DNA of 64,000 bases from a virus: IMG/VR virus record IMGVR_UViG_3300021961_000020; one strand, 5' to 3'. Position numbers and translations under genes: made by a program. The notes under the pieces are model-generated. The model had not been told where the DNA came from. It saw only the letters and a program-made list of their open reading frames with translations, and made no database searches. Shown here piece after piece: positions 11,356 to 63,215 of this stretch (its first letter is position 1; each line of letters opens with the position of its first letter).

Positions 11356-11555
11356 AATTTTTCAATAATTTTACTCAACATACTTTTGATATCATCGATG
11401 TCTTTTCTCATAGACTCAATTTCTTGTCTTTCAGATTTTTTAGCATCTCTTTGTCTTATATATGCCTGATAATTGGAGTCATCGCCGTTAACGATGGCTC
11501 CAGTTTCAGAATCTCTCCAAAGGTAAGAGTGCCCTTCTACGGGAATCAAACTCAT
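11352..11555 (-). CDS. Conserved cyanophage hypothetical protein (coiled-coil C-terminus)
   Basis: IPVEGHSYLWRDSETGAIVN...Y..YI..R...EIESMRKDIDDIKSML; coupled to both neighbours. Confidence 0.75.
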   Translation of the reverse strand: MSLIPVEGHSYLWRDSETGAIVNGDDSNYQAYIRQRDAKKSERQEIESMRKDIDDIKSMLSKIIEKL

Positions 11556-20465: not shown

Positions 20466-20473
20466 TATTTATA
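20466..20473 (-). promoter_or_regulatory. T4-like late promoter TATAAATA for gp8
   Basis: Exact TATAAATA on the minus strand overlapping the gp7 stop codon, about 33 nt before the gp8 ATG. Confidence 0.8.
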
Positions 20474-32400: not shown

Positions 32401-32912
32401 TTTTTATAAAATTCCTTTAGGAAGAGAGCACTTACATTAATGACAGTAGATCCAGAAGTATGAGGTGCTGCGACTGTCTTTTGCCAGGCTACATTACCAT
32501 CATTTCTGGAATTATATGTGCTAATTCCACTAAATCCTCTAGTACACCCAACAAAGGATGTGCTGGTTTTATCTGTGTAGGTGATAATTTCATTATCTAC
32601 CTTTAAAAGTCCATGACTTTTCGGATATCCATCAGTACTGCTAACATAGACAGTATCATCGGTCGTAGAGAGATCCGCAGTCAGATTAGTAGAACCTCGG
32701 ATTACATCCGTGGTTAAATTATCTAACTTAATGTATGCATCAATATTTTCAGCAATATCTGCAGGACCACCTTGATAGTCCTGAGAGATATAGTACTGTT
32801 TTAGGAATTCGACAAACGCAGGGTTCTCCGAAACTGCAAATTCAGGTACAGCTTCACTTACTACTTGATAAGTCTTGATTCTGGGACTTAAAGGCGAATT
32901 TGTCTCGATCAT
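20469..32912 (-). CDS. gp7: Baseplate wedge initiator (gp7-like giant cyanophage protein, 4147 aa)
   Basis: Between gp6 and gp8; VPEFAVSENPAFVEFLKQYYISQ...ARSLYEAKGT..SFKILFKALFG; IIGWAYDGNPIYGP; LDDHNGRF..TPEFPNG.YAYF; YYQNMSYAIES...HPAGMKNF. Confidence 0.85.
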   Translation of the reverse strand: MIETNSPLSPRIKTYQVVSEAVPEFAVSENPAFVEFLKQYYISQDYQGGPADIAENIDAYIKLDNLTTDVIRGSTNLTADLSTTDDTVYVSSTDGYPKSHGLLKVDNEIITYTDKTSTSFVGCTRGFSGISTYNSRNDGNVAWQKTVAAPHTSGSTVINVSALFLKEFYKKLKAMYAPGLEGVTLSPDLNINNFLKEARSLYEAKGTESSFKILFKALFGIDPKINDLEKFLIKPSYANYVRRKTISVELISGNPVNLIGETLFQDNDPINPNFNAASGPISEVSNIREGYYKISLFTGFDERSLTDGIFRVPGRTRNVGEVGLGASVITVDSTIGFSSTGTLKLGNPGDSYFQTVSYGTKSINQFFDVTPPVSTTIPDNSKISAPNIVYGYENGDLTKKVEMRITGVLNEFVTNQGLQNLDATSSIRVKNLGRYIDNPEVDKSYEEIFFNSWIYNTSSRYYVDSFSGSQFVLDGTIDKSSLKLGDKVELLLRGNTQVIASNLIVTNVNTTTRTVTLSGTIPTLNSFLSYDIRRVQNKATSTIVPIRGGQNQLLSDINNTYIISENESPSGKREAYVASSSLPSYPIITDKIHSVLINPSFALGNWDGFSSVENAYSIIAFSNNVPFKTGDKVYYTPGEGTPVIGGLAQGDYYVKVLSPANRIQLFSSLAFIKADLPVYFNPPDGLIGTHDFILSSQGAKNVFPSRPIRRFILEQDLESGKEEQTTSESTADGNTGMLINGTEVLNYKGEDSVYFGELKSIDILGSGTNYDVSFPPSITINEPNVSAANTAAALAVVSGNIKNILVDPVGFDIDTIISVEIYGGNGKGARGRAVTEERFRELSFSGISTLSGGDLNATNDVITFDDDHNLLTGDRIVYDNNGNSNLGIATTGSSKEELTLMSGQDYYVHANSEKSVSLYYSKNDAILGISSVQITEDAAAANNGLHILRTYEKRTALGRISVEDPGEGYTNRHLIVKSSGINTERDFVQFENHGFSDGEVINYAYDTSGITGLSTTKQYQVIKLDDNRFRLAESGNKGDRDPVTTNYSKGIHVYLDSSGSGYQRFYYPPVECKVKILTKNQKEEELTATPIVRGEIVDTILYEKGSNYGSTILNFENAPTISIPSGTLGQIAVIISNGRIISAFVLAGGTGYSGPPEVEVLSTSSTASGAVLRAEVANGVISSVKVISGGAGYTDATTTIRITPPGSGLKFRASLRRLIINKAYGLNQTQLNYLAPIGEGLAVNSIGYGNSIRSSFGDDGSGHSPIIGWAYDGNPIYGPFGLEDPDNIQSDVKRMVSSYEISSTNISNRPSTAIFPYGSFVADYVYKGSGDLDDHNGRFTKTPEFPNGIYAYFATVDNLYNPVFPYYIGDTFRSFAIRENTVRGLLIDQINFNFEKSALVRNTFPYNLFGDGKAYDYVFQPYNTNNQVSLPDKLGVGSVTSIEVLNPGEGYTVKDQFVFDETGTNGGGLSAEVQKIYGKTIDRVTSSITRFSNVPMEYNRNGIVFKVTPYHEFQTNDSVGISGISTYVRGLEGYNPINTPLFKTNLTDDGYTGIITDIRVDFISPVVSAGDSIGIGTEIMRLLNAFPSEKILRVERYAGFTTASAGAAVTFFNSKFTVPLTNIEPFKSRFQDIYYFNPKEAVGVGTTVGFSTSVNVSLNGVTKIRSILSQSIFLANHGLKNNDLITFDKRGNADIFATDSISPYTTPSALSGNYYVVKKTDSTIGIKTLPDGPELFFTNTGDNKANYSFVTNYAQETADVERSILTVVTEEDHDLEVNDKVTLTVRPGLTTGIGASTTAVVKYLDGQLIVNPIGISTTGINTTTNTFTVSDHNLETGFKVLAYGAGGISTSLPDGLEQRNYFVLRIDNDTFQLTDSKKQLRTNPPEVVSINDFGTEGQTLNPINPPIKVVRRNNLVFDLNDPSLVGSKLKIFYDRNYFNEYVGTGSTDNLEVVGFGTVGIGTTNPSDAPTLTVNYSRLLRHELYYGLERGGFMSTADRDVDDRIKIAYYDSAFTGNYTISGIGSTTFEATLVYEPEASQYLAKDCEVLEYTTTAIGATGGIAQVRLNNGGFGYSKFPAITSIGNSGTSAELQLISKSINLLESVSVPTDVYGYPADNTLKPDAFLPRVVKIKNADKVIEASVVYGGRSYLNAPSLVLYDLSSGEIVNNGLVTCDLSDSAVNTVNVVVQPRGLTNNDYGLAPLRNSNGISIIEAFSDVGVLTCKITTPILGYIDEPFTTGEIVYLEGIEFNNDGDGFNSGDYKFADFTIADYNSAVNPRQVTFTYTGLTTNVGTGATVRPGFGQIVKSNDLARFSVTKSFSEFAQNENLRRNDDLVTDLVLRSVDTATGVLVIEGSRPLEPDDVLVGTNSGDRAEVDVVEEFDGYFNISATIDTNLGWSDDIGLIGDSNQYLPDNDYYQNMSYAIESEKTYNEIVTYVNNIAHPAGMKNFANTQILSVGNAGESTQPADDAGGFVLDFISDPLRVDAIYGFDQSRDVDAADNVSKFVELRSTRLSDFILNKTNRVLVHDDISPLFVSNESNDLSDDRTIAAAVAGRNFSRYLVQTTHDAENPLNNQYQFNELILVVVNGNTYLLQKSHVNNTNNVGLATGYAEFFSFFNVNENVTELRIKPYETFDTDYDIKVLQQGFSSDVGIGSTNTGNVVNSSVNKVVSIGTTTEIIGFSTTTFVSGIGHFLVVDKADNKIDYHELVLQTDGVDTYLTELASFNTRQSLGGLSGPTFMGTFTSSIESGVVKIDYVHTNTTSVDIRCKFVSFENVGLGTTSVRHFNLEFTPEGTERTGRIVVGSSATTGIATVVGVSSNIDLSFKSTVHVSYGSTQTLHQFYVLSDPEKQDTFISQAPIAAVGTTTGIGTFGAEFSAGKVNLEFYPDPGVTGIVSIFSYNEILYKDLDPNGTLAGIGSFDYGKVFENVTQNTYLGINNRNIRTFDLTYQGTPIYERDLNPQNPTQIDYGTGLISFKHFFSNTEQVTYTPDSNIIGIAASALHYVTGYGSTELPSTVYIVKNNNSQFFISTTITDARLGIAVTFQPGTGSGNKHRFTMEKRDQKTILALGGIVQKPITYTQITYDLDVAVNGIVTSFALSGLSTITSGDLLKLEDEYTIVRTVGFASTSTGPITGIGTWSIAEVERGAVGTAATDHPAGTVGRIHRGAFQILNSQVHFTDAPLGGDLGITDPSNLPYPRASFGGRTYLRVDYGTNELFDDFSDQFDGLQNTFPLTATGAAVTGIGTTGGNGVLFINGIFQAPFGENNEGVSNFKIIEEPVSTAASIQFTGITSVGFTDLIIDPDDINQNQLPRGGIIISVASTPGRGYAPFEGASVRLEVGTGGTITNIIGVSTAGPSVNITEAFYDNRTGIMTVTTATSHNLLLEDQVKLVGLAFTCPGYGATYSVYDFQYDESTGIATVFTVGNHGLIAGDDVKLAYIGFSCSAPHAGVTTTIFPDGTQGYFYPVNSVGTTTSFVTNVGISTIAHTYAGGGQVQTGITTNIFPDHDDPFAVVGVISATQFKTNVGPSTFGHTYVSGGTAAQWHPLTFGSGYNTNTGTIGIAVTSSTGTGATITAVVGAGGSLVFSVVGPGTNYTEDDLVLPPDPNGENLPIVGVSRIGLGATTVTGVGCSVSVQIAGVSTSTGIGSNYYQVANWEFSKKGYGFKRGDIFTVTGLSTDPSAGDDFQQFELEVVDVFTDQVASWQFGNIDYLDNIKRYQNGDQKRFILEYQRSIVSFEIDRNDADSKEIDLSAVLLIFINGVIQEPGVNYTFNGGSVLEFSTAPTAEDNVVIFFYRGTIGQDSFLFDVNEVIKVGDSIRLNKSSEVELNRVSQSAENFAQSEDRIVKRIDSAVTVETPFYQGVGISNDNYKPLTWIKQKKDILIDGSVVSKARDSIEAQISPIASVIGVVSTTDAFIFVDSTALFKDTDGLLNENFNLAYIAEVGFGTTAVSGINFENMTGIEPLVANVQGYIGVVTGISTCPGIGTDLGLLIQFDVQSYVNDGNDPTGFGTNYPFKLYGTGINTAGAAVTSIDTHDTDIVGISTFNGDNIYYASAISFVPGSGSRLGVITANIASYTDTTDFVGVGSTAGPYCYFTWGRFGDISRGTPAVYANLKGLNYDPQLNNYPIVQRRGVGLRGTGGLPKRL

Positions 32913-49299: not shown

Positions 49300-50004
49300 T
49301 TACTGATAAATGTGAAACATCATTCCATGATAACCAGAATTGTACTTTTTGCCAGATCCTTTCATCTGTAGGTGAAACAATTTGTCACCATCAAAAGTAC
49401 GAAACTCAAGAGTCGTGTTATTTAGTTTCCATTCACCAGTTTGAGTCAGTTTGTCAAGATCTGCAATAGAAATGAACTTAACATTGTTAGTCTTTTTGTT
49501 ACGCCAGATCATCGTAGAGACAGGATAACCATCATCAAGACCACGACGCACAATGACATCGAATATATCCATCTTATTGGCGTTCATAAACCCCAGGAAG
49601 GCGTCTTTAATGTGCTGAGGGATATTCTCTGCATAGACGCGATTCTGACGCTTCTCAGCGTCACTCAGGGCAATGTCCTTATACTGAAGGTGAACCAAAG
49701 ACATACCAAGATTGTTAGGCATGCCAAAGAACATCCTAATGAAAGACTCACAATCAGTACCCTGAAGTCCGAAATGCTCAACAAACTTACGGGAAGAGAG
49801 TAAGGCAACTTGGGTGTGATTCTTGCTGACATTCTTGACAGAATAGGCAATACCTGAATCGTTGTCATAAACATCAACCTTAGTCGCAGGACGACCGTCA
49901 GTTACATGATCGCCACCGAACAATTCATTCAGATAAGCAGGCAAATCGTCCTCATATTTGTGACCCTCTGCCTTTGCTAGTCGTCCCGCTTCGATAGCGT
50001 TCAT
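49300..50004 (-). CDS. PD-(D/E)xK endonuclease, HinP1I/MspI-like
   Basis: GRLAKAEGHKYE (E18)...TKVD...YSVK...TQV...F.HLQMKGSG; resembles HinP1I along its length as recalled; has a GGAGG Shine-Dalgarno and its own early promoter. Confidence 0.7.
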   Translation of the reverse strand: MNAIEAGRLAKAEGHKYEDDLPAYLNELFGGDHVTDGRPATKVDVYDNDSGIAYSVKNVSKNHTQVALLSSRKFVEHFGLQGTDCESFIRMFFGMPNNLGMSLVHLQYKDIALSDAEKRQNRVYAENIPQHIKDAFLGFMNANKMDIFDVIVRRGLDDGYPVSTMIWRNKKTNNVKFISIADLDKLTQTGEWKLNNTTLEFRTFDGDKLFHLQMKGSGKKYNSGYHGMMFHIYQ

Positions 50005-50025
50005 GTGTCCTCCGTTGATGCTCTT

Positions 50026-50084
50026 ATTATAGCAGCATCAGCAGGGTGTGGTCACTTTTTGGTCCGCTTCTTGAACTGTCCACC
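50026..50084 (-). promoter_or_regulatory. Early promoter P6: GTGGACAGT-N7-GCGGAC, about 29 nt, TATAAT
   Basis: Motif copy upstream of the nuclease; TGCTATAAT extended -10. Confidence 0.7.
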
Positions 50085-51452
50085 CATAATTGGATCTAAT
50101 CTAATCTCTCCATGCTTCTCAGGAGGATCGATCAATGGAGACATGAGAGGAAACTTATGTGCATAAGGTGCGCCTAATCCATATGCTGCCTGAACAAAAC
50201 TTTGATATGCTCCTAACATTCTGTAGGGTTCATCTGAGTCAGGAGACATTCTCTGACGCAGGAAGTATTCATCCTCTGCTTGTCTCCTAAAGTAATCAAG
50301 TCTGATATTCTCATGGCGGGGAATCTGCGCAAGTTTCTCATACACTTCAGCACGATTGAGAGAGTGCAGTTGATGATTCTCCAGAAGTGCGCATGCACTC
50401 AGTCTAGTCTGCTCCCAGAACTTTGACTTGTATCTAGAACCAAACTGCATGTAAAATGCCATGACAGTGGCAGTATCAACCTGACTATCTTCCCATCTCT
50501 CCTCTACCTCAAGTCTGTGGAAGTTTGATTGCTGTCTATCAGGATCATAGAACAAATACTCTCCAAGAGCATTAGCAATATCAGACTCAGTGTAACTATT
50601 GAAACCAGTGAAGTCGTCGTTAATACCTAACGCACGACCACATCTTGCGTATTTGTTATTCTTGTGAATGGCATACTCAGATACTTTATGATCCGATTCG
50701 TTCTTTCTATAAGAACAATGCTTCTTAACTTCACAGTGAGCATTAAAGTCTGCTACTGCTTCTTCTTCAGTTGTAATATCACTATCGTAAGAATAGATCC
50801 ATGTTTGTGCATCTTGTGTGGGAATACCAGTTAAGTAACCATGCTCACATGCAACATGCACAGTATAATCCCACTCACCAGGCAACTTACGATTAACTGT
50901 CAGTTTTGTATCTGTTGGGTTGAAATATGCATCTTTATATGCTTTCTTATCCCATAGTGCTCCCTTCACACAATCAATAACAAAACTGTATGCTTCACCA
51001 TCGATGTATGCATTGTCATCATCAAAAGTGAGTGACTTAATTCTCTTATCAATCAGTTTTACTTTACGATGCTGATTGGTAACATTCTCCCAGAAGAAGT
51101 CAACAAACTTACCTTCATCAAAGTGCAATCCAATTTCAGTGGGATCAAACATTGTATAGAAGTTCTTGTCTCTACGATTACCGAGACCAACAAACTTCAT
51201 GCCAAGTTTTTGTACTGCATCAAATCTTTGATAATAGTCGATTGCACTAATTGTGGTGTTTTGAGCAACAGAAGTAACCCAAATTGGACTCGTTTGGACT
51301 CCGAAATTGGGAACTTGATGAGAGCAATCCCGTATCCATGTAATTTCGTCATCTTGATATACACTATCCTGAAGGTCTCTATGACTGATAAGTTGAACCA
51401 GAGTGATCACAGCATCTGCACCAGCACCAATAATAGCAATTTTTCTACTCAT
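50052..51452 (-). CDS. Divergent tryptophan-halogenase-like flavoprotein
   Basis: N-terminal Rossmann KIAIIGAGAD; LHFDEGKF; YSFVIDC.G; GYLTGIP; Y.FGSRY.S.FW, resembling cyanophage PrnA-like proteins. Confidence 0.65.
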   Translation of the reverse strand: MSRKIAIIGAGADAVITLVQLISHRDLQDSVYQDDEITWIRDCSHQVPNFGVQTSPIWVTSVAQNTTISAIDYYQRFDAVQKLGMKFVGLGNRRDKNFYTMFDPTEIGLHFDEGKFVDFFWENVTNQHRKVKLIDKRIKSLTFDDDNAYIDGEAYSFVIDCVKGALWDKKAYKDAYFNPTDTKLTVNRKLPGEWDYTVHVACEHGYLTGIPTQDAQTWIYSYDSDITTEEEAVADFNAHCEVKKHCSYRKNESDHKVSEYAIHKNNKYARCGRALGINDDFTGFNSYTESDIANALGEYLFYDPDRQQSNFHRLEVEERWEDSQVDTATVMAFYMQFGSRYKSKFWEQTRLSACALLENHQLHSLNRAEVYEKLAQIPRHENIRLDYFRRQAEDEYFLRQRMSPDSDEPYRMLGAYQSFVQAAYGLGAPYAHKFPLMSPLIDPPEKHGEIRLDPIMGGQFKKRTKK

Positions 51453-51481: not shown

Positions 51482-51488
51482 TATTTAG
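51482..51488 (-). promoter_or_regulatory. T4-like late promoter (CTAAATA) for the halogenase-like gene
   Basis: CTAAATAA about 30 nt upstream of the ATG at 51452, overlapping the upstream stop codon. Confidence 0.5.
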
Positions 51489-51637
51489 TTCAGAACAGGT
51501 AAAATGTCATAACTCTCGATTCCCTGCTTCTTCAGTTCTTCAATCCACCAAAGAACATCCTCTTGATTGTAAAAGACTGCTTTCTGAAAGGATGAATAAC
51601 CTTTCTTGGGACGCTTCCACTCAACTGCAAATTTCAT
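51485..51637 (-). CDS. Conserved cyanophage hypothetical protein, 50 aa (start re-assigned)
   Basis: MKFAVEWKRPKKGYSSFQKAVFYNQEDVLWWIEELKKQG. Confidence 0.65.
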   Translation of the reverse strand: MKFAVEWKRPKKGYSSFQKAVFYNQEDVLWWIEELKKQGIESYDILPVLN

Positions 51638-51677: not shown

Positions 51678-52856
51678 CTACTTGGAATCCCAGGACTTGT
51701 CAACCGTGATGTTAGCAAGACGAAACTCATCGTCAACAAACTTCATCATGGACTTGTCATTGTGGACGACATAACCTTCAGGAGAAGTAGGATTGCGACC
51801 GATGAAGGTTTGGATGTTACCAACTTTGTTGAGTTGAGTAATAACCATCTTCTTAGCAGTACGGATAGAGATATATGCAGCAATCAGGAAATAGAGTTCT
51901 TTCTGATGATGAGAGATGAACATGAGACCATTGACTTTCATGTCATCATACTTATTCTGTGCAGCAAGAGTCTTCTTCTTTGCTTTCTCTGCATCAAGAG
52001 TCTGTCTGTAGAATACAGCAAACTCAGCAATGATCTTCTTGGTGTCAAGAACACCGCGACCAGAACGAATACGCTGATTGAAGAAACGCTTGAGTAGCAG
52101 ATTCATCATGAAAGTAGTTTGTCCCTCAGTTTGAATAAGATCGAGGAACTTAGAGCATTGCTTCAGCGCACCATTTGCTTTGTTGATGTGTGTGTTGAAG
52201 AGGAACACATCGCCTGCATCAAATAGAGCAGCACCAGTGGCATCAACAAAATTCGCACTGGCAACATAAACATCTTGAGTGCAAAGATACTTAGGTGCTT
52301 TCTTCTGCGGTACAACTTGTGCAGTCTGTAGAGTATCGCCCTTGTAAATCGTATGAAACACGATGCCAACCTTGGCGAGATGCACCGCATTACCTTCTCT
52401 GGAATTACGATTAACAGCGTAAGTGATAGTATTAGGAGTAAAGCAAATAACTCGCTTTCCACCGACAACACCGCTTCTCTTATCTTCTTGAGTGAAGAGT
52501 AGGTCACCTTGAACAATACCTGTGATGTTGAGTTGAGGTAGATACTTGAGGCAATCTTTGAGTTTGCTTGCAAGTTGACCAGTGTAGAAACGATCTACAT
52601 CGGTGTCATCAAAACAAATCTTTGGATTGACTTTATTGAACACAGACTTAGTGCCAACAAAGAAACGACCGCTGATGGGTTCCGTGCCACAAACAACGGC
52701 AGGAGCACCATCCCACTTTGTAGTGATACTCAAATCACTATCTTTGCCAGACAACATGTCACTGAACTGACGCAGGAAGTTGATAACATTGAACCCGCCA
52801 GCGGTGCCGCTGTTCAGGATCTCGTCTTCCAGGTGCTCTAGGTGAGTGTTCTTCAT
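51678..52856 (-). CDS. DUF6267-like protein; putative ligase-fold nucleotidyltransferase (start re-assigned to 52856)
   Basis: MKNTHLEHLEDEIL...ITTKWDGAPA...FFVGTKSVFNK...QGDLLFT...FTPNTITY...PEGYVV...KFV. Confidence 0.75.
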   Translation of the reverse strand: MKNTHLEHLEDEILNSGTAGGFNVINFLRQFSDMLSGKDSDLSITTKWDGAPAVVCGTEPISGRFFVGTKSVFNKVNPKICFDDTDVDRFYTGQLASKLKDCLKYLPQLNITGIVQGDLLFTQEDKRSGVVGGKRVICFTPNTITYAVNRNSREGNAVHLAKVGIVFHTIYKGDTLQTAQVVPQKKAPKYLCTQDVYVASANFVDATGAALFDAGDVFLFNTHINKANGALKQCSKFLDLIQTEGQTTFMMNLLLKRFFNQRIRSGRGVLDTKKIIAEFAVFYRQTLDAEKAKKKTLAAQNKYDDMKVNGLMFISHHQKELYFLIAAYISIRTAKKMVITQLNKVGNIQTFIGRNPTSPEGYVVHNDKSMMKFVDDEFRLANITVDKSWDSK

Positions 52857-52862
52857 GCTCTT

Positions 52863-52915
52863 ATTATAGGTCCTGACAGGGGTTGTGGGGTGCTCAGTGT
52901 GCCACTTCTTCATTT
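52863..52915 (-). promoter_or_regulatory. Early promoter P7: ...AAGTGGCACAC, 28 nt, TATAAT
   Basis: Half-conserved motif upstream of DUF6267; the AATAAGAGCAT downstream of the -10 is shared with P6. Confidence 0.6.
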
Positions 52916-53512
52916 GAACCCAGGACCATTTGCCCAGACCACCAGGGAGCGGCGAGTCCCACCAGTCACAGGGGTGACACGATGTAAGACATAACTCGGA
53001 AATACTATTACAGAACCGCGTTTGTTGTTGCCAATATGTATATCTCCGTCATTGAATTGCAACTCTCCACCTTCATATTCTGATGGATCTGATAGTTGTA
53101 CTGACATGCTCAACTTCCTCGGTGGCATGTCAGACATCATCATATTGTCTACATGCCAATTATAGCATGAATTATCGTCATGATATACAGTATATTGCAA
53201 ATCTTCGTGGAATCCATGAATATCATATCTCCAATACATTCCATTCATGCATCTAAGGATTCTTCCTAATTTCTCATAGATCCACTCACTATCTTCCTCC
53301 AATGTAATCCATGCATTTTTAGACTTTCTGATGCTTTCTACTACCGTCGTATTATCATCATTAGATCCTACTGTAGATGATCTAGGACCCAAAGATTCTC
53401 CATACTGGACAATACGATCACATTCCTCAGGAGTAAATCCATCCTCCCAAGATTCATAAAGAGTTTCACCCATCCCAAAGTTGGGAGGAGGACATAATTT
53501 ATAGATTCCCAT
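52910..53512 (-). CDS. 2OG-Fe(II) oxygenase (prolyl 4-hydroxylase/PKHD-like)
   Basis: YNWHVD...RKLSMSVQLSDPSEYEGGELQF...GSVIVFPSYVLHRVTPVTGGTRRSLVVW (HxD...H triad and 2OG-binding Arg). Confidence 0.92.
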   Translation of the reverse strand: MGIYKLCPPPNFGMGETLYESWEDGFTPEECDRIVQYGESLGPRSSTVGSNDDNTTVVESIRKSKNAWITLEEDSEWIYEKLGRILRCMNGMYWRYDIHGFHEDLQYTVYHDDNSCYNWHVDNMMMSDMPPRKLSMSVQLSDPSEYEGGELQFNDGDIHIGNNKRGSVIVFPSYVLHRVTPVTGGTRRSLVVWANGPGFK

Positions 53513-53521
53513 GATAAAAAG

Positions 53522-55222
53522 TTAGTAAATTACTCTGATGTCTCCAGATCCACCCTCATTGGGTCCGTTAATTACCTCATAATACTGATTAGATGAAGGT
53601 CCAGTGCCTTTAACAGCACGACCAGCAGCACCACCACCGCCAGGAACTGCCTGCCCAATAAATGAACCACTTCCGCCAGGAAGTCCCCAGTTTCCACCCG
53701 ATCCTCCAGGTCTTCCAGGTGTGCCAGGTTGTCCAGGAGTTCCAGCGGTTCCAGGTGTGCCAGGTTGTCCAGGTTGACCGTTACCTCCTCTGCTTCCAGG
53801 AGTTCCAGGAGTTCCAGGTTGTCCAGTTCCTCCAGGTTGACCAGGAGTACCAGCAGAGCAACCAGCAGCACCGCCAGGTTGTCCAGCCCTTCCAGAACCG
53901 CCAGGAGTGCCACTGCCGCCAGGTTGTCCACTTCCACCAGGAGTGCCAGGTTGACCAGACCCACCGCCACCTCCAGGGGTGCCAGGAGTGCCAGGAGTGC
54001 CAGGTTGACCCGTTATAACACTCGTTGGATAGTTCCATCCTCTACCACTTGTAGAGATGCCTAAAACGCCTTTGATACCGCCAGTGCCATTGTATCCGCT
54101 GGCGCCGCCAGCGCCACCAGATCCGCCGCCACCACCAGATCCACCAGAACCACCAGATCCTCCGCCGCCACCAGCACCGCCAGCACCACCAGAACCACCA
54201 GAACACCAAGTTCTTGCCTGTGCCTGAGATCTTTGCTGTGCTCCGCTTCTTTGTTGGTAACTTTGTCTATTCTGCCAACCTGCCCTTCTTTGTCTGGGCC
54301 AACCACCATTCGGGCGTCTATCGTTTCTTCTATTTCTCTCAGTTCTTCTTTGTTGGAAACCTCTTCTTTGTTGATAAGATGCTCTCTGTTGACCAGGAGA
54401 ACCAGGAGCACCGTTAGCACCAGAAGATCCACTAGATCCATTAGATCCACTAGACCCAGGACTACCAGAAGAACCATTAGATCCTCTTACACCAGCAGCA
54501 GCACCAGATCCATTAATACCATTAACGCCATCAATACCATCAATTCCGCCGCCACCACCAGCATAAATGCGAGCATCTGAACCCTCACATTCTACAAATA
54601 CTTTACGAATTGCAGGTGCTCCAGGATTATCGACATCGATAGCATGCCCTCCAGGTTGTCCACCAGTTGCACCACCAGCAGAATAGATTCCGTAACCAGG
54701 AGGAGTATTTGCTACAAATACTTTTAGGTTAGATGTTGCCTGATCGACAATCAAAGATGCTGTGCCAACAGTAGAACTAACGATTCTACCTTTTAATGTA
54801 AGATATTTGGTGATATTTTTATTTAAATTTCCATTCCAAGATGCATCAACAGATGGAGTGGTAGGACTACTTAAAGTAGCAGCGTTAAAGTTCTCTTCCT
54901 GAGTTGCAGATGCCTGCTCAATGACATACTCTTTAATAACACCTCTCAAGTCTTGAGGTGAAATAGCACCAGTAGTTCCGACACCTACATTTTCGGTTGC
55001 ATCCAACACATAAGGAAGGTGCGCTGAACCAGTAGATGATGGATATTTGCCAGTTGCATAATCATATGGTGCATCAAGATCAGTAACTCGATGCAACTCA
55101 CGAGCAGAAATTGGTGCTGTTGTGTCACCAATCGCTGCTCTAATTTCACCATAAGAGATGCGAGTCCCAGGAGTACCTGTTAGGAGTTGTTGAGTTTTTT
55201 CGCTCCAATCTCCAAAAGCCAT
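53522..55222 (-). CDS. Glycine-rich receptor-binding adhesin, T-even gp38-like, with G-X-P repeats and an Arg/Gln-rich insert
   Basis: GIYSAGG...PGGHAI, IYAGGGGG, GGSGGNWGLPGG, GGAAGRAVKG match the glycine-rich motif order of gp38; downstream of the fibre genes. Confidence 0.7.
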   Translation of the reverse strand: MAFGDWSEKTQQLLTGTPGTRISYGEIRAAIGDTTAPISARELHRVTDLDAPYDYATGKYPSSTGSAHLPYVLDATENVGVGTTGAISPQDLRGVIKEYVIEQASATQEENFNAATLSSPTTPSVDASWNGNLNKNITKYLTLKGRIVSSTVGTASLIVDQATSNLKVFVANTPPGYGIYSAGGATGGQPGGHAIDVDNPGAPAIRKVFVECEGSDARIYAGGGGGIDGIDGVNGINGSGAAAGVRGSNGSSGSPGSSGSNGSSGSSGANGAPGSPGQQRASYQQRRGFQQRRTERNRRNDRRPNGGWPRQRRAGWQNRQSYQQRSGAQQRSQAQARTWCSGGSGGAGGAGGGGGSGGSGGSGGGGGSGGAGGASGYNGTGGIKGVLGISTSGRGWNYPTSVITGQPGTPGTPGTPGGGGGSGQPGTPGGSGQPGGSGTPGGSGRAGQPGGAAGCSAGTPGQPGGTGQPGTPGTPGSRGGNGQPGQPGTPGTAGTPGQPGTPGRPGGSGGNWGLPGGSGSFIGQAVPGGGGAAGRAVKGTGPSSNQYYEVINGPNEGGSGDIRVIY

Positions 55223-57980: not shown

Positions 57981-60900
57981 TTATTTATCCTTTAGTTCAT
58001 CAACCTGTTTCGAAAGGTCCTTAACTGCCTCAATCAGGAGAGGAATAAGTTTGTTATAGTGAACGCCCTTAGTTCCATCAGGTTTAGTAGAAACAGCCTC
58101 AGGAAGTACTTTCTCAACATCTTGAGCAATGACTCCAATGTCATGACCCCTGTAACTCTTATGACCTTCCTTCCAGTCATACTCTGTACCACGGATTTGC
58201 ATAACCTTAGCGAGAGGATCTTCCAGGGTGGAGATATTCTCTTTCAGCAGAGCATCAGAAGGAGAACCATAGAAAGCAACAATATCATCATAAACATGGA
58301 GAGGACCACCATTGTATGTGAATCCAGCACCACTCATGTAGACATCACCAGAGAATGTGGTGAATCCATTGATGTTAACTTGCTGTTCAAATGTTACCTG
58401 AGCACTGTATTTAGTGTCAGTTGCAATAGCAACAGCGAATCCAGAAGCAGCATTAAGAACAAGGTCGCCTGTTCCAGGTGCAGATCTGATCTCAGTGTTT
58501 TGTGTGCCAACACCAGCAAGAACATTGTTAAGTTTAGCACCACTCGGGAAAGTACCAGTGATTTCAATAGAACCGCCAAGGTCAACTGTTCCGCTGGTGA
58601 TTAAATCATCAGTGAAGTTGACATCATTGGAGAATGTAACAGGACCATCAAATTGAGACAGAATGTTTTGCTGAGGACCACCCTCAACAATAATTCTTTG
58701 TCTTACGATAACTTCGTCAAATACGACAGAGTTACTAGATGCAGTCTCACCAGTTACAGTGGGAATAGGAATACCGAAGGAAGATTCTTGACCACTGGAA
58801 GAAGAAATACGCTTGTTACCAATGTAGAAGTCACCTTCGTTATTCAGACCAGTGTAGACAATTACACCAGCAGATCTTTCTTGTGCCTGAGACAGATACT
58901 CTTCATCATCAGTCAGAGTTCTATTCTGTACTTGGGGGAGACCAGTGGAGTAGTTACCAGGACCATAACCAAGATATTCAAATGTATGACCAGATGCACG
59001 GAGAATAGAAGGACGACGCAATTCAATGGCAAGAGCATTGACCTTTCTGATTAAAGAACCAGCGGAATGATGAGCAGGGAGAGTTCCCAGCGCACCACGA
59101 ATTACTGTCAATGTATCACCACCACCACCGCTCAGTCCTTGAGAAGAAATTCTCATGATCTCAGCATCAACTTCGATGTAGTCTCCCAGTTTGAATCTTT
59201 GATCTGTTCCAATACCAGAGTTAGGAACTTGCAGTCTGACGGATGTTGTTGTGTTGTTCAAGTCATCCTTAACAGTAGCAATCTCTCCAGCATACAGATT
59301 GTTATATCTAGATCCGATTCTTTCGGAAAGAGCTACAGGTTGATTTTGTCCTTCAAATACACCCTGATACAGTTTATGTCCAGCAGCATAGTTGATATCA
59401 TTTACTGTGGTCGATGTAAATGTATTGATACCAGCAATGGTATCAACAATAAAATCACCAATCTTGTTACTGTTAGTATCGACGACTCTAAACTTAGATC
59501 CTCTTCTGAGTCCATGTGGACGCGATGTTGTAATTGTCGTGATACCAGTTGTAATGTCGAAATGAGTAGAAGCGATAGCAACAGAAGGAGAAACTCTAAA
59601 TGCATACTGACCACCAACAATTAAAGGATCGCCAGATGTTACTGCAATAGCAACGCTTGTCTTAGTTGGTACGGATGCAATTCTATACAGACCATCTGTA
59701 GTTGTGCCAATACCAGTAACGGCAAGAACATCACCAACTGCGGAAGAAATACCAGCAGTGGGAACACCAATACTAGAACCACTAAATCCATCAATAGTGA
59801 GAGATTCGCCACCGACAAATCCAGAACCAGGAGCGGCAATTTCAAGTCCTGTGATTGTAGTAGATCCAACACCAACAGTTACAGTAGCAGTAGCACCGTT
59901 CCAGTTTCCACCATTAAGCAGTTTTACATTATACTTAGTGGTCTCAGCATAACCAACACCAGAAACGAGATTCTCGTAAGTAACAAGACCATTCAGATTG
60001 TGCTGGTTTGTGAATGTTACAGTTACGATACCAGCAGAGAAAGCAGTTACACTAGAGACGGCAAGTCCAACATTAAATGTCTTCAAGAACTTGTCAGATG
60101 CCTCTCTTGTAATAGATCTCTTGAGATCATCAATTTCAACTTTTCCAAGAGGAGCACGCTTAGCAAAAGATCTAGATGCAGAAGGATTAACTACGATATT
60201 ATCTCTGTCCTGCTGAGGATAATAGTAAGTAACATTCTGCTCATACTTCTTAGGAGTAAACTCCTGAGGTGGAGCATAATCAGCAGCAAGAAGTTCGATC
60301 AGATAAACACCATCGTTCTGATCTCTAACATAAGGTTCTACAACTGTAGTACGATATACAGAGAGATTCTTTTGGTTATTGTTAATAGAGAATCTGGGGA
60401 GGAAAAGATTTCTAGTGTTTGTGGTATCTACATAAGTACCAGTGTTTCTCTCTACACCATCATTGTCAGTATTGGGATAAGTAAACTGATATCCATCAAT
60501 AATTCCAGAGACAGTAAAGTATCCGTTGTATCCTCTATTAGGGAGTCCATCAGTATTGTTAGAATCTTGGATATTCTCAACATAAATGATATCACCAACC
60601 TCTACCATGTGCGGCAGTTCGGTTCTAACAGTAACAACAGATGATGTCTCACTAACTTCAGCAATGAACTGATTATTTCTTCTGAAGTTATTGTCGTCGA
60701 GTGTGATAGATGTTGCAGTAGGATCAGCAGTTTTTGCAAATCCAGTCAAACCAGAGTTTTGAATAATGAATCCTGGTGCAGGATCTCTAGAGTTTCCTGC
60801 TTCCTTAGGAATAACATATCTGAACTTATACAGTTTATCTTCAACACTTCTATTATCTTCGAATCTCTCAATGTAAGAGATGTTTGTGCCTGCACCATCG

Positions 60901-63215
60901 GTCAGGTTGATGTTGCTCTGAATCTGAGGGAAGATATTGTTAGAAGTATTAACATGCAAGAACCACTGATTTTGATTCAAGTCCCACTGAATTGGGTGAC
61001 CAATTTCTCCAGCACTCTTATCAGATACTCTACTCTCTAATCTAAGATTACTTCCACCATACAGTTCAATAGGAACATTGTTGATAGCATTAGAGAATGT
61101 CGTTGCTACTTTAATCTGAGTGGGAGATACGACGATAGCATAGTATACTCTATCAAATTCGAGATTTTCGGGAAGATCTCCATCATCACTGAAAATTCTA
61201 ATCTTCTCGCCAGTTACCAGTCCAATGGAACTGACTGTCATTGCGAAGTTTACATTAGGAACACTTAACTTACTAGATTTAGTTCCTGTTCTAGATCCAA
61301 TAGATGCAGTTGCAACACCAGCAATAATATTTTCTGTCATACTGACAGGAGCATCATAAACAGTATTGCCGATGGAAACATAAAGTTTCTCATCGAGTCT
61401 GGCACCAACTCTGAAACCCTGAGACAAACTCAACGGCGGATCATCTTCTCTATCAAATCCGAAGATGTAAAGGTGACTGGAAAGTCCAACATTCTTAGTC
61501 TTACTTACATCCAACTGGTAGAAACTTACAGTATCAACTACACTTCTAGATGTGTTGACATGCTGAGGAGATGCAATGTGTGTTACATATCCTTGGTCAT
61601 CTCTTGGGAATGCTTCATTTCTAAATCCATCAGCAACCAGAGAGAATTGACCGAAGTTGGAGTTAGAGTTGGTGATAGATGCGTCAGCACCACTCTCACC
61701 TACAAAGTGACCATTGAAACCAATGGCAAACACGGAAACAACCTGAATAACAGCGTTGTTTGACATCTTAATGTGGGACTGTTCCCAACCTTGACGGTAA
61801 ATAGCACCAGAATCAAGGTGATAAACAGTTGCAGCATCTGTAGAAGATGACTGAGATGCTAACTCAGCACCAGAAACGGTAGGATAGGTAATACCTTCAT
61901 ACAATCTGGAAACTGGATTATACTTGACAAATGCTCTATCGTCTTTTTGGAGAGAGATGCCCGTGAACTGGGCAACAACCATTGAACGGAAACCTTGAGA
62001 CTTGCTGCCATCGGCATGCATGCCGTTCATACCATAAACGGAACGCAGAGAGATGTTAAAGATATACGGAGATGCACCAGTTACAGTATCAGATTCGATG
62101 GTAACTACAGCACTCGTGATGTTAGACGGAGTTGCAGGTAAGTTATTCGGGAATGTAGGCAGAGAATATGTAAATGTTGTTGCATCTACAATAGATTGAA
62201 CAACGGTAGAAATATTATACTGAGATACATTGACTCCACTAATCTTGATCGGAGTACCAGCACTTAATCCATGCTCTTGTTCAGTGACGACGGTAACTTG
62301 AGATGTGGGGCTAAGACCATCACCAGAGACAATGCTAGCAATCTCCAGGGGATCAGTACCAAGAGCACCAACAATCTCAAATTCAGGACGAACTTTCTCA
62401 AAGTCACCCTGATTCTCGGGCCATTCGTATGTAATAGCACGACCAGATGCCTCTTGGAAGGCATATGTCAGCTTGTAATAATACATGCTGAGGTCTGTGT
62501 GGTCGTAACCCTTAACCTCATTAACACCATCAGCATACTCAAAGCATGTCAGTTTGTGGTGAGAGAATGAAGGTAAAGATCTGTTATCATCATTAAATTG
62601 CTGGTGGTCGGTATATACTAAACGGTCACCTTTACCATCAAACAGAGAGAACTGCCAGAGATAGCAGTTACCAGTGATTCTGAAGATTGCAGAATCAGGT
62701 ACATCATCATCTGTAGGGTTCGGTACATACAGAGGACGGATCTTAGTCTTTCTGAGGTCAAGACCAACAATAGATGTACCACGAGGCACAACACATCCAC
62801 CGTTGACGGAGTTAAATCTATAAAGAATATTATTTTCTACAGTAAGGTCGAATTCGCTAGTTAGAGATAGAGCAAATTCTGAAGTCGCTAATGTTTCAGC
62901 ACCAATGGGAGATACGCCAACTGCTCTACTAGGATCAGAAGGATCTTTTTTAATTGCAAATCCAGGTCTGTTGTCAATGAAGTGATCCCCAGGGAACAGG
63001 AGAATCGTTGTTTTATCGGTAATATCGTTATCGAATCCAGTCTGATATGAGAATCTTGCCGACTCTAATAATGCCCGCTGAATAGTTTTGAAGGGTTTCG
63101 TCAGCGAGTTACCCTGGTTCGTGATACTGTCTGTAGCATCAAGATCATTAGGGTTAACATAAAGAATTTTACCCTCAGTATTCTTGATGAAATTCTCTAA
63201 CTTATTAAGTGGCAT
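57981..63215 (-). CDS. Long tail fibre/virion protein (1744 aa) with beta-helix-like N-terminus and C-terminal peptidase S74 intramolecular chaperone
   Basis: YVNPNDLDATDS..NQGNSLTKPFKTIQRALLE...GTSIVGLDLRKTKIRP; C-terminal SDALLKENI...IRGTEYDWK...DIGVIAQDVEKVLPEAV...V.YNKLIPLLIEAVKDL. Confidence 0.85.
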   Translation of the reverse strand: MPLNKLENFIKNTEGKILYVNPNDLDATDSITNQGNSLTKPFKTIQRALLESARFSYQTGFDNDITDKTTILLFPGDHFIDNRPGFAIKKDPSDPSRAVGVSPIGAETLATSEFALSLTSEFDLTVENNILYRFNSVNGGCVVPRGTSIVGLDLRKTKIRPLYVPNPTDDDVPDSAIFRITGNCYLWQFSLFDGKGDRLVYTDHQQFNDDNRSLPSFSHHKLTCFEYADGVNEVKGYDHTDLSMYYYKLTYAFQEASGRAITYEWPENQGDFEKVRPEFEIVGALGTDPLEIASIVSGDGLSPTSQVTVVTEQEHGLSAGTPIKISGVNVSQYNISTVVQSIVDATTFTYSLPTFPNNLPATPSNITSAVVTIESDTVTGASPYIFNISLRSVYGMNGMHADGSKSQGFRSMVVAQFTGISLQKDDRAFVKYNPVSRLYEGITYPTVSGAELASQSSSTDAATVYHLDSGAIYRQGWEQSHIKMSNNAVIQVVSVFAIGFNGHFVGESGADASITNSNSNFGQFSLVADGFRNEAFPRDDQGYVTHIASPQHVNTSRSVVDTVSFYQLDVSKTKNVGLSSHLYIFGFDREDDPPLSLSQGFRVGARLDEKLYVSIGNTVYDAPVSMTENIIAGVATASIGSRTGTKSSKLSVPNVNFAMTVSSIGLVTGEKIRIFSDDGDLPENLEFDRVYYAIVVSPTQIKVATTFSNAINNVPIELYGGSNLRLESRVSDKSAGEIGHPIQWDLNQNQWFLHVNTSNNIFPQIQSNINLTDGAGTNISYIERFEDNRSVEDKLYKFRYVIPKEAGNSRDPAPGFIIQNSGLTGFAKTADPTATSITLDDNNFRRNNQFIAEVSETSSVVTVRTELPHMVEVGDIIYVENIQDSNNTDGLPNRGYNGYFTVSGIIDGYQFTYPNTDNDGVERNTGTYVDTTNTRNLFLPRFSINNNQKNLSVYRTTVVEPYVRDQNDGVYLIELLAADYAPPQEFTPKKYEQNVTYYYPQQDRDNIVVNPSASRSFAKRAPLGKVEIDDLKRSITREASDKFLKTFNVGLAVSSVTAFSAGIVTVTFTNQHNLNGLVTYENLVSGVGYAETTKYNVKLLNGGNWNGATATVTVGVGSTTITGLEIAAPGSGFVGGESLTIDGFSGSSIGVPTAGISSAVGDVLAVTGIGTTTDGLYRIASVPTKTSVAIAVTSGDPLIVGGQYAFRVSPSVAIASTHFDITTGITTITTSRPHGLRRGSKFRVVDTNSNKIGDFIVDTIAGINTFTSTTVNDINYAAGHKLYQGVFEGQNQPVALSERIGSRYNNLYAGEIATVKDDLNNTTTSVRLQVPNSGIGTDQRFKLGDYIEVDAEIMRISSQGLSGGGGDTLTVIRGALGTLPAHHSAGSLIRKVNALAIELRRPSILRASGHTFEYLGYGPGNYSTGLPQVQNRTLTDDEEYLSQAQERSAGVIVYTGLNNEGDFYIGNKRISSSSGQESSFGIPIPTVTGETASSNSVVFDEVIVRQRIIVEGGPQQNILSQFDGPVTFSNDVNFTDDLITSGTVDLGGSIEITGTFPSGAKLNNVLAGVGTQNTEIRSAPGTGDLVLNAASGFAVAIATDTKYSAQVTFEQQVNINGFTTFSGDVYMSGAGFTYNGGPLHVYDDIVAFYGSPSDALLKENISTLEDPLAKVMQIRGTEYDWKEGHKSYRGHDIGVIAQDVEKVLPEAVSTKPDGTKGVHYNKLIPLLIEAVKDLSKQVDELKDK
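57982..57988 (-). promoter_or_regulatory. T4-like late promoter (ATAAATA)
   Basis: GATAAATAA about 30 nt upstream of the ATG at 57952, overlapping the upstream stop codon. Confidence 0.6.

What the first reader, a model, noticed from the sequence alone, without database searches (positions are those of the whole stretch)
51678..52856. DUF6267-like early protein carries the motif set of a covalent nucleotidyltransferase (ligase fold)
Seen in sequence, in order: T-T-K-W-D-G (motif I KxDG, the adenylated Lys), FFVGTKS (Ia-like), IVQGDLL (III, cf. ilDGEL/VFGEF), SPEGYVV (IV, EGxVV) and MMKFV (V). Established knowledge: these motifs define ATP-dependent DNA/RNA ligases and capping enzymes such as T4 Rnl1 and Rnl2. 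The gene has its own early promoter (P7). Inference: an uncharacterised RNA ligase or nucleotidyltransferase, possibly repairing tRNA or other RNA cut by host defence nucleases, or adding nucleotides to another substrate during takeover.
Basis: partly seen in the sequence, partly recalled or inferred. Interest (0 to 1): 0.75.

Follow-up and report, generated by a model that had tools for sequence, protein, structure and literature searches.

The report
Ligase-fold enzyme in marine phage
An uncharacterised protein family (DUF6267) found in most marine T4-like cyanophages is predicted to fold like the catalytic domain of RNA/DNA ligases and keeps their key residues, so it is probably a new kind of ligase-type enzyme in phages that carry no recognisable ligase.

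Summary
The gene lies on the minus strand (51678-52856, 392 aa) and is a full-length DUF6267 member (E 2e-113). All five quoted motifs are present. Their key residues (K47, D49, G50, K70, D118, E360, G361, K372) are invariant in 104 diverse homologues.

- **Unusual architecture:** a 130-residue helical module splits the catalytic domain between motifs IIIa and IV. There is no OB domain. An invariant N-terminal HLEHxED motif is present.
- **Partner enzyme:** outside the window's clade the gene is almost always followed by, or fused to, a PPAT/NMNAT-like adenylyltransferase. The window's clade lacks this partner nearby.
- **No other ligase:** six of seven complete phage genomes carrying DUF6267 encode no known DNA ligase; the four tested for RNA ligases have none either.

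I read it as a new ligase-type family. The substrate is unresolved (RNA favoured, DNA possible). First readers of this scan flagged the same motifs on other genomes.

The parts
51678..52856 (-). CDS, 392 aa plus stop: DUF6267 protein, predicted ligase-type nucleotidyltransferase
   Evidence: PF19782 E 2e-113; AF2 pLDDT 94.3; RNA ligases are the top structural matches
52857..52913 (-). Possible 19-codon N-terminal extension from an upstream ATG that overlaps the stop of the 2OG-oxygenase gene (ATGA). Probably not translated as part of the protein
   Evidence: The Pfam model starts at residue 22 of the long form. Most relatives are 392 aa. The stretch is poorly conserved
52863..52868 (-). TATAAT hexamer ending 6 nt before the ATG. 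Candidate -10 box of a promoter without a -35 box, implying a near-leaderless mRNA
   Evidence: invariant in 12/12 related loci; not called by the generic scan; the same 14-mer TATAATAAGAGCAT recurs at 50031
52824..52844 (-). N-terminal motif HLEHLED (residues 5-11). H5, E7, H8, E10 and D11 are invariant or nearly so
52701..52724 (-). Motif I equivalent, TTKWDGAP (residues 45-52). K47 is the predicted nucleotidylated lysine, at the end of strand 43-47 before a loop and strand 53-58
52644..52664 (-). Motif Ia-like FFVGTKS (residues 65-71), with K70 invariant. Compare FKSKGS in T4 Rnl1
52494..52517 (-). Motif III equivalent IVQGDLLF (residues 114-121). D118 is invariant and takes the place of the usual Glu
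52419..52442 (-). FTPNTITY (residues 139-146), a family-specific conserved strand and candidate motif IIIa. Y146 is invariant; F139, P141, N142 and T143 are nearly invariant
52344..52361 (-). VFHTIY (residues 166-171). H168 and T169 are invariant. Family-specific strand of unknown role
51831..52217 (-). All-helical module (residues 214-342, six helices) inserted into the nucleotidyltransferase domain between motif IIIa and motif IV. It is shorter in the 296-320-aa forms of the family
51765..51785 (-). Motif IV equivalent SPEGYVV (residues 358-364), with E360 and G361 invariant. EGYV is identical to T4 Rnl1 residues 227-230
51729..51749 (-). Motif V equivalent MMKFVDD (residues 370-376), with K372 invariant. 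It has a single Lys instead of K-x-K

Best explanation
The gene encodes a new, highly divergent family of ligase-type covalent nucleotidyltransferase. By analogy with ATP-dependent ligases, Lys47 in KWDG attacks the alpha-phosphate of a nucleotide cofactor (ATP assumed) to form enzyme-Lys-AMP. Asp118 (motif III), Glu360 (motif IV) and Lys372 (motif V) hold the nucleotide and metal. AMP then goes to a 5'-phosphate end, which a 3'-OH attacks to seal the strand.

I favour RNA ends as the substrate, that is RNA joining or repair during infection. The closest folds are RNA ligases, there is no OB domain, and an all-helical accessory module is present, as in T4 Rnl1 and Rnl2. Here that module is inserted inside the catalytic domain.

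In most phages the enzyme works as a unit with a PPAT/NMNAT-like adenylyltransferase, encoded next to it or fused to it.

- **Shown:** family membership, motif invariance, predicted fold, and the linkage to the partner.
- **Inferred:** adenylation, substrate, and biological role.

My odds are about 0.8 for ligase-superfamily fold, about 0.55 for a polynucleotide substrate, and about 0.35-0.4 for RNA specifically.
For: **Family and motifs**
- Full-length DUF6267.
- K47, D49, G50, K70, D118, E360, G361 and K372 are among only 16 invariant columns in 104 homologues. They also hold in fused forms and short forms.

**Fold**
- The AF2 model has pLDDT 94.3 and pTM 0.91.
- More than ten DNA ligases follow.
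- The aligned ranges run from before motif I to about 10 residues after motif V in both the model and the ligases.
- The weak tail of the BFVD search is also enriched in viral RNA ligases.
- The best Pfam-named language-model neighbour is a cluster in which 48% of members carry RNA_ligase PF09414.
- Motif IV-V spacing and residues resemble T4 Rnl1: EGYV, then 8-9 residues, then K.

**Context**
- Some partner proteins carry an AAA_33 P-loop kinase or a Pol-beta nucleotidyltransferase, which are typical RNA-repair companions.
- Four complete cyanophage genomes with the gene have no Rnl1, Rnl2, ATP-dependent or NAD-dependent DNA ligase. The T4 control is positive for all three ATP-dependent ligase families it encodes.
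Against: - There is no sequence-level link to any ligase: Pfam/NCBIfam find only DUF6267; phmmer and a profile against PDB sequences find none; hhalign against an Rnl2 alignment gives probability 0.5%; the local alignment to T4 Rnl1 is not significant (89 of 500 shuffles reach its score).
- Foldseek against the PDB found nothing.
- Motif III has Asp rather than Glu, and motif V has one Lys rather than two.
- Most phages with the gene lack a polynucleotide kinase/phosphatase, which is needed to repair nuclease-cut RNA.
- The near-universal partner is an adenylyltransferase for small phosphorylated molecules, which has no known role in RNA repair.
- The gene usually lies in the DNA replication module.
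- I could not verify the pocket geometry.
Confidence: 0.4

Rival explanations
1. It is the missing DNA ligase of the Kyanoviridae-type marine myoviruses. In this reading it seals Okazaki fragments and recombination nicks in place of T4 gp30, using the helical insert instead of an OB domain to hold DNA.
For: - In S-CAM1, DSL-LC02, Melnitz, HTVC008M, Syn9, S-RIM8 and S-SZBM1 the gene sits in the replication module, between gp41 helicase/MazG and gp61 primase.
- Six of seven complete DUF6267 phage genomes have no PF01068 DNA ligase. The four also tested for PF01653 have none, while T4 is positive for PF01068.
- The literature lists gp30 as a non-cyanophage core gene, absent from marine cyanophages (PMC5349666, PMC2993671).
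- DNA ligases are among the structural matches.
Against: - Stenotrophomonas phage DLP6 has both a gp30-type ligase and the DUF6267-plus-partner pair.
- RNA ligases outrank DNA ligases structurally.
- No OB or known DNA-binding domain is present.
- In the window's clade the gene lies next to fibre, oxygenase and halogenase-like genes, not replication genes.
- The host NAD-dependent LigA could serve replication.
Confidence: 0.2
2. It is a ligase-fold enzyme that does not join polynucleotides. Together with the PPAT/NMNAT-like adenylyltransferase it forms a two-step nucleotide-transfer pathway. Possibilities are making, using or recycling an adenylylated dinucleotide cofactor (NAD-like), capping or 5'-adenylylating RNA, or AMPylating a protein or small molecule.
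For: - **Tight linkage to the partner.** In the broad IMG/VR sample a partner gene lies 1-5 genes downstream in almost every locus that holds several downstream genes.
- Fusions occur in both orders: 72 of 144 long forms carry the partner domain, 50 N-terminal and 22 C-terminal.
- The PHROG 455 profile spans both parts.
- **Partner identity.** It has the HxGH-type FGRFNPPTxGH and SxSKxR motifs. Its fold is closest to PPAT, NadM and NadD, and its nearest PDB sequences are archaeal NMNAT and NadR. These enzymes attack ATP with a substrate phosphate, the same chemistry as ligase step 2.
- Other shuffled modules occur in the locus: DUF5824, SET, and small domains.
Against: - No known precedent exists for a ligase-fold enzyme acting with a HIGH-type adenylyltransferase.
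- The window's whole clade keeps the gene with no partner within 10 kb or on five 74-112-kb contigs. It can therefore function alone or at a distance.
- All characterised members of the fold act on nucleic-acid ends.
Confidence: 0.2
3. It is not an active nucleotidyltransferase. The ligase resemblance would be a shared scaffold, and the protein would have a structural, assembly or binding role. One example is help with fibre attachment, the second function of T4 gp63/Rnl1.
For: - In the window's clade the gene follows the fibre and collagen-like genes.
- T4 Rnl1 is also the tail-fibre attachment protein (established knowledge).
Against: - Strict invariance of exactly the catalytic-type residues across more than 2000 clusters at 50% identity argues for catalysis.
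- DUF6267 itself was not found in the S-SZBM1 virion proteome.
- In most phages the gene lies among replication genes, not structural genes.
Confidence: 0.1

Closest known systems
T4 RNA ligase 1 (Rnl1, gp63; PF09511)
   Same: - Both have KxDG (KEDG in Rnl1, KWDG here), a Lys-bearing Ia segment (FKSKGS against FVGTKS), an identical EGYV motif IV, and a short 8-9-residue spacer to the motif V Lys.
- Neither has an OB domain, and both have an all-helical accessory module.
   Different: - No detectable sequence homology.
- The helical module is inserted between motifs IIIa and IV here, not appended at the C-terminus.
- Motif V has one Lys.
- There is an extra invariant HLEHxED N-terminus, and extra PNTxxY and FHTxY strands.
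- T4 pairs Rnl1 with Pnkp. This family pairs with a PPAT/NMNAT-like enzyme.
Rnl5 (Naegleria gruberi NgrRnl, 5cot) and Rnl2-type nick-sealing RNA ligases (T4 Rnl2, TbREL1; PF09414)
   Same: - An N-terminal L-E-x-H segment precedes motif I in both Rnl2 (SLENH) and this family (HLEH).
   Different: - hhalign probability against the Rnl2 alignment is 0.5%, and there is no PF09414 match.
- Motif IV-V spacing differs (about 21 residues in Rnl2 against 12 here).
- This family has no N-terminal OB domain (Rnl5) and no C-terminal helical domain (Rnl2).
ATP-dependent DNA ligases (T4 gp30, Chlorella virus ligase; PF01068 plus an OB domain)
   Different: - No OB domain with motif VI: the protein ends 20 residues after motif V.
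- No PF01068 match.
- It co-occurs with a true gp30-type ligase in phage DLP6.
Pfam DUF6267 (PF19782) / PHROG 455
   Same: Full-length member.
   Different: - The family has no assigned function, and no paper in the searchable library mentions it.
- The window's clade differs from most members in lacking the adjacent adenylyltransferase gene.

Membership tests
DUF6267 (PF19782) | Match to the Pfam model above the gathering score, over its full length | tested here: met
   380 bits against a cut-off of 27, model positions 1-376 of 376
Covalent nucleotidyltransferase superfamily (ATP/NAD ligases, capping enzymes) | Nucleotidyltransferase-domain fold | tested here: met
   [not shown]
Covalent nucleotidyltransferase superfamily | Motif I KxDG with a conserved lysine nucleophile | tested here: met
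   K47-W-D49-G50, with K, D and G invariant in 104, 60 and 8 sequences
Covalent nucleotidyltransferase superfamily | Motifs III, IIIa, IV and V in order with their acidic and basic residues | tested here: inconclusive
   The order is kept. IV (E360-G361) and the V Lys (K372) are invariant. III has Asp118 in place of Glu, V lacks the second Lys, and the IIIa assignment is uncertain. Residue-level superposition was not available
Covalent nucleotidyltransferase superfamily | Motif residues line one nucleotide pocket | not testable with these tools
   Model coordinates are not exposed to the script box
Covalent nucleotidyltransferase superfamily | Formation of a covalent Lys-NMP intermediate | not testable with these tools
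   Needs radiolabelled nucleotide and a K47A control
Rnl1 family (PF09511) | Sequence-profile match | tested here: not met
   No Pfam hit at E up to 1. The local alignment to T4 Rnl1 is not significant
Rnl2/Rnl5 family (PF09414) | Sequence-profile match | tested here: not met
   No Pfam hit. hhalign probability 0.5% against an alignment of 19 Rnl2 sequences, which is shallow at 56% identity or more
ATP-dependent DNA ligases | PF01068 catalytic domain followed by an OB domain with motif VI | tested here: not met
   No PF01068 hit. The secondary structure shows only one helix after motif V
T4-type RNA repair system (Rnl1 plus Pnkp) | A polynucleotide kinase/phosphatase encoded in the same genome | tested here: inconclusive
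   In four complete DUF6267 cyanophage genomes, only one has an AAA_33 kinase above the cut-off, fused to the partner protein. T4 is positive. The window's own genome is not held

The most novel reading that the evidence does not exclude
DUF6267 is a previously unrecognised family of polynucleotide ligase and the only ligase that the abundant marine T4-like phages of cyanobacteria, SAR11 and OM43 encode. Its catalytic domain is split by a helical substrate-binding module. It acts as an obligate pair with a PPAT/NMNAT-like adenylyltransferase that makes or recycles its cofactor in situ. One example would be NMN plus ATP giving NAD+, which would make this the first NAD-type RNA ligase, or a ligase that supplies its own cofactor.
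Probability: 0.12. Interest if true: 0.85.

Novelty: new variant of a known kind. Interest (0 to 1): 0.62.

Why it matters
**Size and reach of the family**
- The family has at least 2084 clusters at 50% identity.
- It occurs in 470 cultured phage genomes, nearly all of them marine cyanophages.
- It also occurs in pelagiphage HTVC008M, OM43 phage Melnitz and Stenotrophomonas phage DLP6.

**Why the assignment would matter**
- These phages have long been noted to lack T4's DNA ligase.
- A ligase-type enzyme with a new domain layout and an unprecedented adenylyltransferase partner would add a new branch to the ligase superfamily.
- It would fill a gap in the replication or repair toolkit of some of the ocean's most abundant viruses.
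- It could also yield a new enzyme for nucleic-acid work.

The hypothesis is directly testable with a simple adenylation assay.

Tried and rejected
**Sequence and structure searches that found no ligase link**
- phmmer of the protein and hmmsearch of the 104-sequence profile against all PDB sequences gave no ligase, only low-complexity helical noise.
- NCBIfam gave no hit.
- Foldseek against the PDB returned only meaningless carbonic-anhydrase rows with TM about 0.07.
- hhalign against a T4 Rnl2 alignment gave probability 0.5%. That alignment is shallow because the homologue search lists only close relatives.
- Smith-Waterman of the motif I-Ia and IV-V segments against T4 Rnl1 placed IV-V correctly, but the score is not significant.
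- The ESM Atlas gave only a weak lead to an RNA_ligase cluster, score 0.75.

**Ideas tested and dropped**
- Strict complementarity with DNA ligase is rejected, because DLP6 has both.
- A conserved upstream partner gene is rejected. The upstream genes are not homologous across phages.
- An NtcA site or a -35 box upstream of the TATAAT is absent.

**Searches for the partner**
- It is not in the 64-kb window.
- It was not found on five 74-112-kb contigs of the window's clade. Only one of these contigs holds the gp41 helicase gene that marks the replication module, at its very end, so absence from the genome is not shown.

**Tools and papers not available**
- No whole genome is held for the window.
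- Metagenome records could not be searched whole.
- The Burroughs and Aravind 2016 paper and the Doron 2016 paper are not in the library.
- Model coordinates could not be read, so pocket geometry and residue-level superposition were not done.

Full report
**1. What is at the coordinates**

The finding's coordinates hold an ORF on the minus strand. From the ATG at 52856 it encodes 392 aa (MKNTHLEHLEDE...). An upstream in-frame ATG at 52913 would give 411 aa and overlaps the stop of the preceding gene in an ATGA.

The shorter start is the likely one. The Pfam DUF6267 model matches the long form from residue 22 over its complete length, E 2e-113. PHROG 455, of unknown function, matches too. Most close relatives are 392 aa, and the extension is not conserved.

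The window is a T4-like cyanomyovirus. The nearest cultured homologue of this protein is only 47.7% identical, in Synechococcus phage DSL-LC02.

**2. The motifs**

The family is large.
- There are 2084 representatives at 50% identity.

In 104 homologues at 30-81% identity only 16 columns are invariant: H8, K47, D49, G50, P52, G57, F66, K70, D118, Y146, H168, T169, E360, G361, K372 and F378. Half of these are the residues that would be the catalytic ones of ligase motifs I, Ia, III, IV and V.

The same residues are kept in two other sets.
- 60 long fused forms.
- The short 296-320-aa forms of S-RIM8, Syn9 (gp183) and P-SSM2.

The family also has an invariant N-terminal H-L-E-H-x-E-D motif, plus PNTxxY and FHTxY strands that are not classical ligase motifs.

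**3. Fold**

AlphaFold2 on the 104-sequence alignment gave a very confident model: pLDDT 94.3, pTM 0.91. Its layout is as follows.
- A beta-rich core spans residues 43-199.
- Six helices span residues 214-342.
- Strands at 349-374 carry motifs IV and V.
- K47 sits at the end of a strand before a loop and the next strand, as in ligases.

Foldseek against the PDB found nothing meaningful. The Foldseek-independent search of 48,161 PDB representatives put RNA ligases at ranks 1 to 9.

|---|---|---|
| 5cot | NgrRnl | 7.9 (183 residues, rmsd 4.2) |
| 6n0t | Trl1 | 7.1 |
| 2hvq / 1s68 | T4 Rnl2 | 6.6 / 6.4 |
| 5d1o | archaeal RNA ligase | 6.4 |
| 1xdn | TbREL1 | 6.3 |
| 9r3w | Trl1 | 6.1 |
| 9do4 | T4 Rnl1 | 6.0 |
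| 8uce | thermophilic RNA ligase | 6.0 |

Two weaker observations agree.
- The tail of the BFVD search is enriched in viral RNA ligases.
- A language-model search gives an RNA_ligase-containing cluster as the best Pfam-named neighbour.

**4. What did not work**

No sequence method connects the family to ligases. I could not read model coordinates. I treat homology to ligases as likely (about 0.8), not proven.

**5. Architecture**

Compared with every characterised ligase, the layout is unusual.
- A 130-residue helical module is inserted inside the nucleotidyltransferase domain, between the IIIa region and motif IV. It is not appended after motif V.
- There is no OB domain.
- Motif III has Asp instead of Glu.
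- Motif V has one Lys instead of two.

The motif IV-V segment (EGYV, 8-9 residues, then Lys) looks most like T4 Rnl1. I read the T4 Rnl1 sequence from the T4 genome to check this.

**6. Genomic context in the wider family**

In the broad IMG/VR sample (35-53% identical to the query), almost every locus that holds several downstream genes carries a 'cytidylyltransferase-like' gene. It is usually the very next gene, often overlapping, and sometimes up to five genes away.

Fusions occur in both orders. Of 144 DUF6267 proteins of 500 aa or more, 72 carry this domain, 50 at the N-terminus and 22 at the C-terminus. The PHROG 455 profile itself spans both parts.

The partner looks like an adenylyltransferase for small phosphorylated molecules.
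- It has the FGRFNPPTxGH and SASKxR signatures of HIGH-type nucleotidyltransferases.
- Its nearest PDB sequences are archaeal NMNAT MJ0541 and NadR, both weak.
- Its AF2 model (pLDDT 80) matches PPAT/CoaD and the NMNATs NadM and NadD at E 1e-5 to 1e-4.
- It ends in a small beta-barrel domain that has been mis-annotated as ribonucleotide reductase.

Occasional extra modules in the partner proteins are an AAA_33 P-loop kinase (Pnk-like), a Pol-beta nucleotidyltransferase, DUF5824, SET, and small shuffled domains.

In cultured phages the pair lies in the replication module, between gp41 helicase/MazG and gp61 primase.

**7. The window's own clade differs**

About 38 metagenomic loci are 52-85% identical to the window protein. 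In all of them the gene has no partner within 10 kb. It sits in a conserved block with this gene order:
1. a fibre-like protein of about 1500-1744 aa
2. a protein of about 905 aa
3. a collagen-like protein
4. one or two 2OG-Fe(II) oxygenases
5. DUF6267
6. a small ORF
7. one or two Trp-halogenase-like flavoproteins
8. a 234-aa protein

The 64-kb window has no partner. Five 74-112-kb contigs of the clade have none either. Only one of those contigs holds the gp41 helicase gene that marks the replication module, at its very end. A distant partner therefore cannot be excluded. The protein evidently can work without an adjacent partner.

**8. Other ligases in these phages**

Four complete cyanophage genomes with DUF6267 have no ATP-dependent DNA ligase, NAD-dependent ligase, Rnl1 or Rnl2. 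T4, the control, is positive for its three ligases and negative for DUF6267.

Melnitz and HTVC008M also lack PF01068. Stenotrophomonas phage DLP6 has both a gp30-type ligase and the DUF6267 pair.

Published comparisons list gp30 among genes absent from marine cyanophages (PMC2993671, PMC5349666). Only one of the four cyanophage genomes has a convincing Pnk-like kinase.

**9. Promoter**

A TATAAT hexamer ending 6 nt before the ATG is invariant in 12 of 12 relatives, while the flanks vary. A second conserved element (GAACTGTCCAC-like) follows the upstream stop codon.

There is no -35 box, and the generic scan is silent. The identical 14-mer TATAATAAGAGCAT recurs before gene 49300-50004.

This supports an own promoter of the -10-only type, which is common in marine picocyanobacteria (my own knowledge), with a near-leaderless mRNA. 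'Early' timing is untested.

**10. Interpretation**

The best-supported reading is a new, very divergent family of ligase-type covalent nucleotidyltransferase, with K47 as the nucleotidylated lysine.

I favour a polynucleotide substrate, and RNA over DNA, for three reasons:
- RNA ligases are the closest folds.
- There is no OB domain.
- The accessory module is helical.

The replication-module location and the lack of any other ligase keep DNA nick sealing a serious rival. The universal PPAT/NMNAT-like partner points to chemistry not seen in known repair systems.

The tRNA-repair or anti-defence story is possible but has no specific support here.

**11. Novelty**

No paper in the searchable library mentions DUF6267, and the cyanophage literature treats the partner as an unexplained 'cytidylyltransferase'. 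First readers of this scan flagged the same motif set on several other genomes. Those are unchecked notes, not independent evidence.

I class it as a new variant of a known kind: a new family and architecture within the ligase superfamily.

Noticed in passing
window 51485-51637 (-): A small ORF of about 50 aa (MKFAVEWKRPKKGY...) lies between the DUF6267 gene and the halogenase-like gene. It is conserved at 73-98% in close relatives and has no family assignment. The longer 84-aa TTG reading overlaps the end of DUF6267.
   Followed up: partly
window 50018-50031 (-) and 52855-52868 (-): The identical 14-mer TATAATAAGAGCAT precedes two genes (49300-50004 and DUF6267). Each has an AAGTG(G/A)C..CAC element upstream at a different spacing. 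This may be a repeated promoter cassette.
   Followed up: partly
window 52890-52905 (-): A conserved intergenic element (consensus GAACTGTCCAC) lies just after the stop of the 2OG-oxygenase gene, about 27 nt upstream of the TATAAT. It is kept in 11 of 12 relatives. It is not an NtcA site or a -35 box.
   Followed up: no
window 50052-51452 (-): A 466-aa flavoprotein with a weak Trp-halogenase match (Pfam E 8e-6, PHROG 2928). It is present in one or two copies immediately downstream of DUF6267 throughout the window's clade.
   Followed up: partly
window 52910-53512 (-) and 53522-55222 (-): A 2OG-Fe(II) oxygenase (P4H-like) lies directly downstream of a 566-aa Gly/Pro-rich collagen-like protein. 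The order is conserved across the clade, and some relatives have two oxygenases. Another first-reader note covers this.
   Followed up: no
L003:4001-5215, L009:2774-3772 and other partner genes: The adenylyltransferase partner ends in a five-strand beta-barrel domain (WEIAPKLD...VGxxVE...RGxNYxI). PHROG 4808 and some GenBank records label it 'ribonucleotide reductase alpha subunit', which is probably a mis-annotation. In S-CAM-type phages it is a separate 91-aa gene.
   Followed up: partly
S-SZBM1 genes 139-141 (L267): A published virion proteome of S-SZBM1 detected the partner (gene 140) and the next gene (139) at low abundance, but not the DUF6267 protein (gene 141) (PMC9146016).
   Followed up: partly
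window 3745-10617, 11552-18853, 20469-32912, 57981-63215 (-): Four giant ORFs (2290, 2433, 4147 and 1744 aa) fill much of the window. They are presumably fibre or baseplate proteins of the cyanomyovirus.
   Followed up: no
P0442 and BFVD A0A218ML49: Some long DUF6267 fusion proteins carry a SET (lysine methyltransferase) domain. Others have 370-420-aa N-terminal extensions with no known domain.
   Followed up: no
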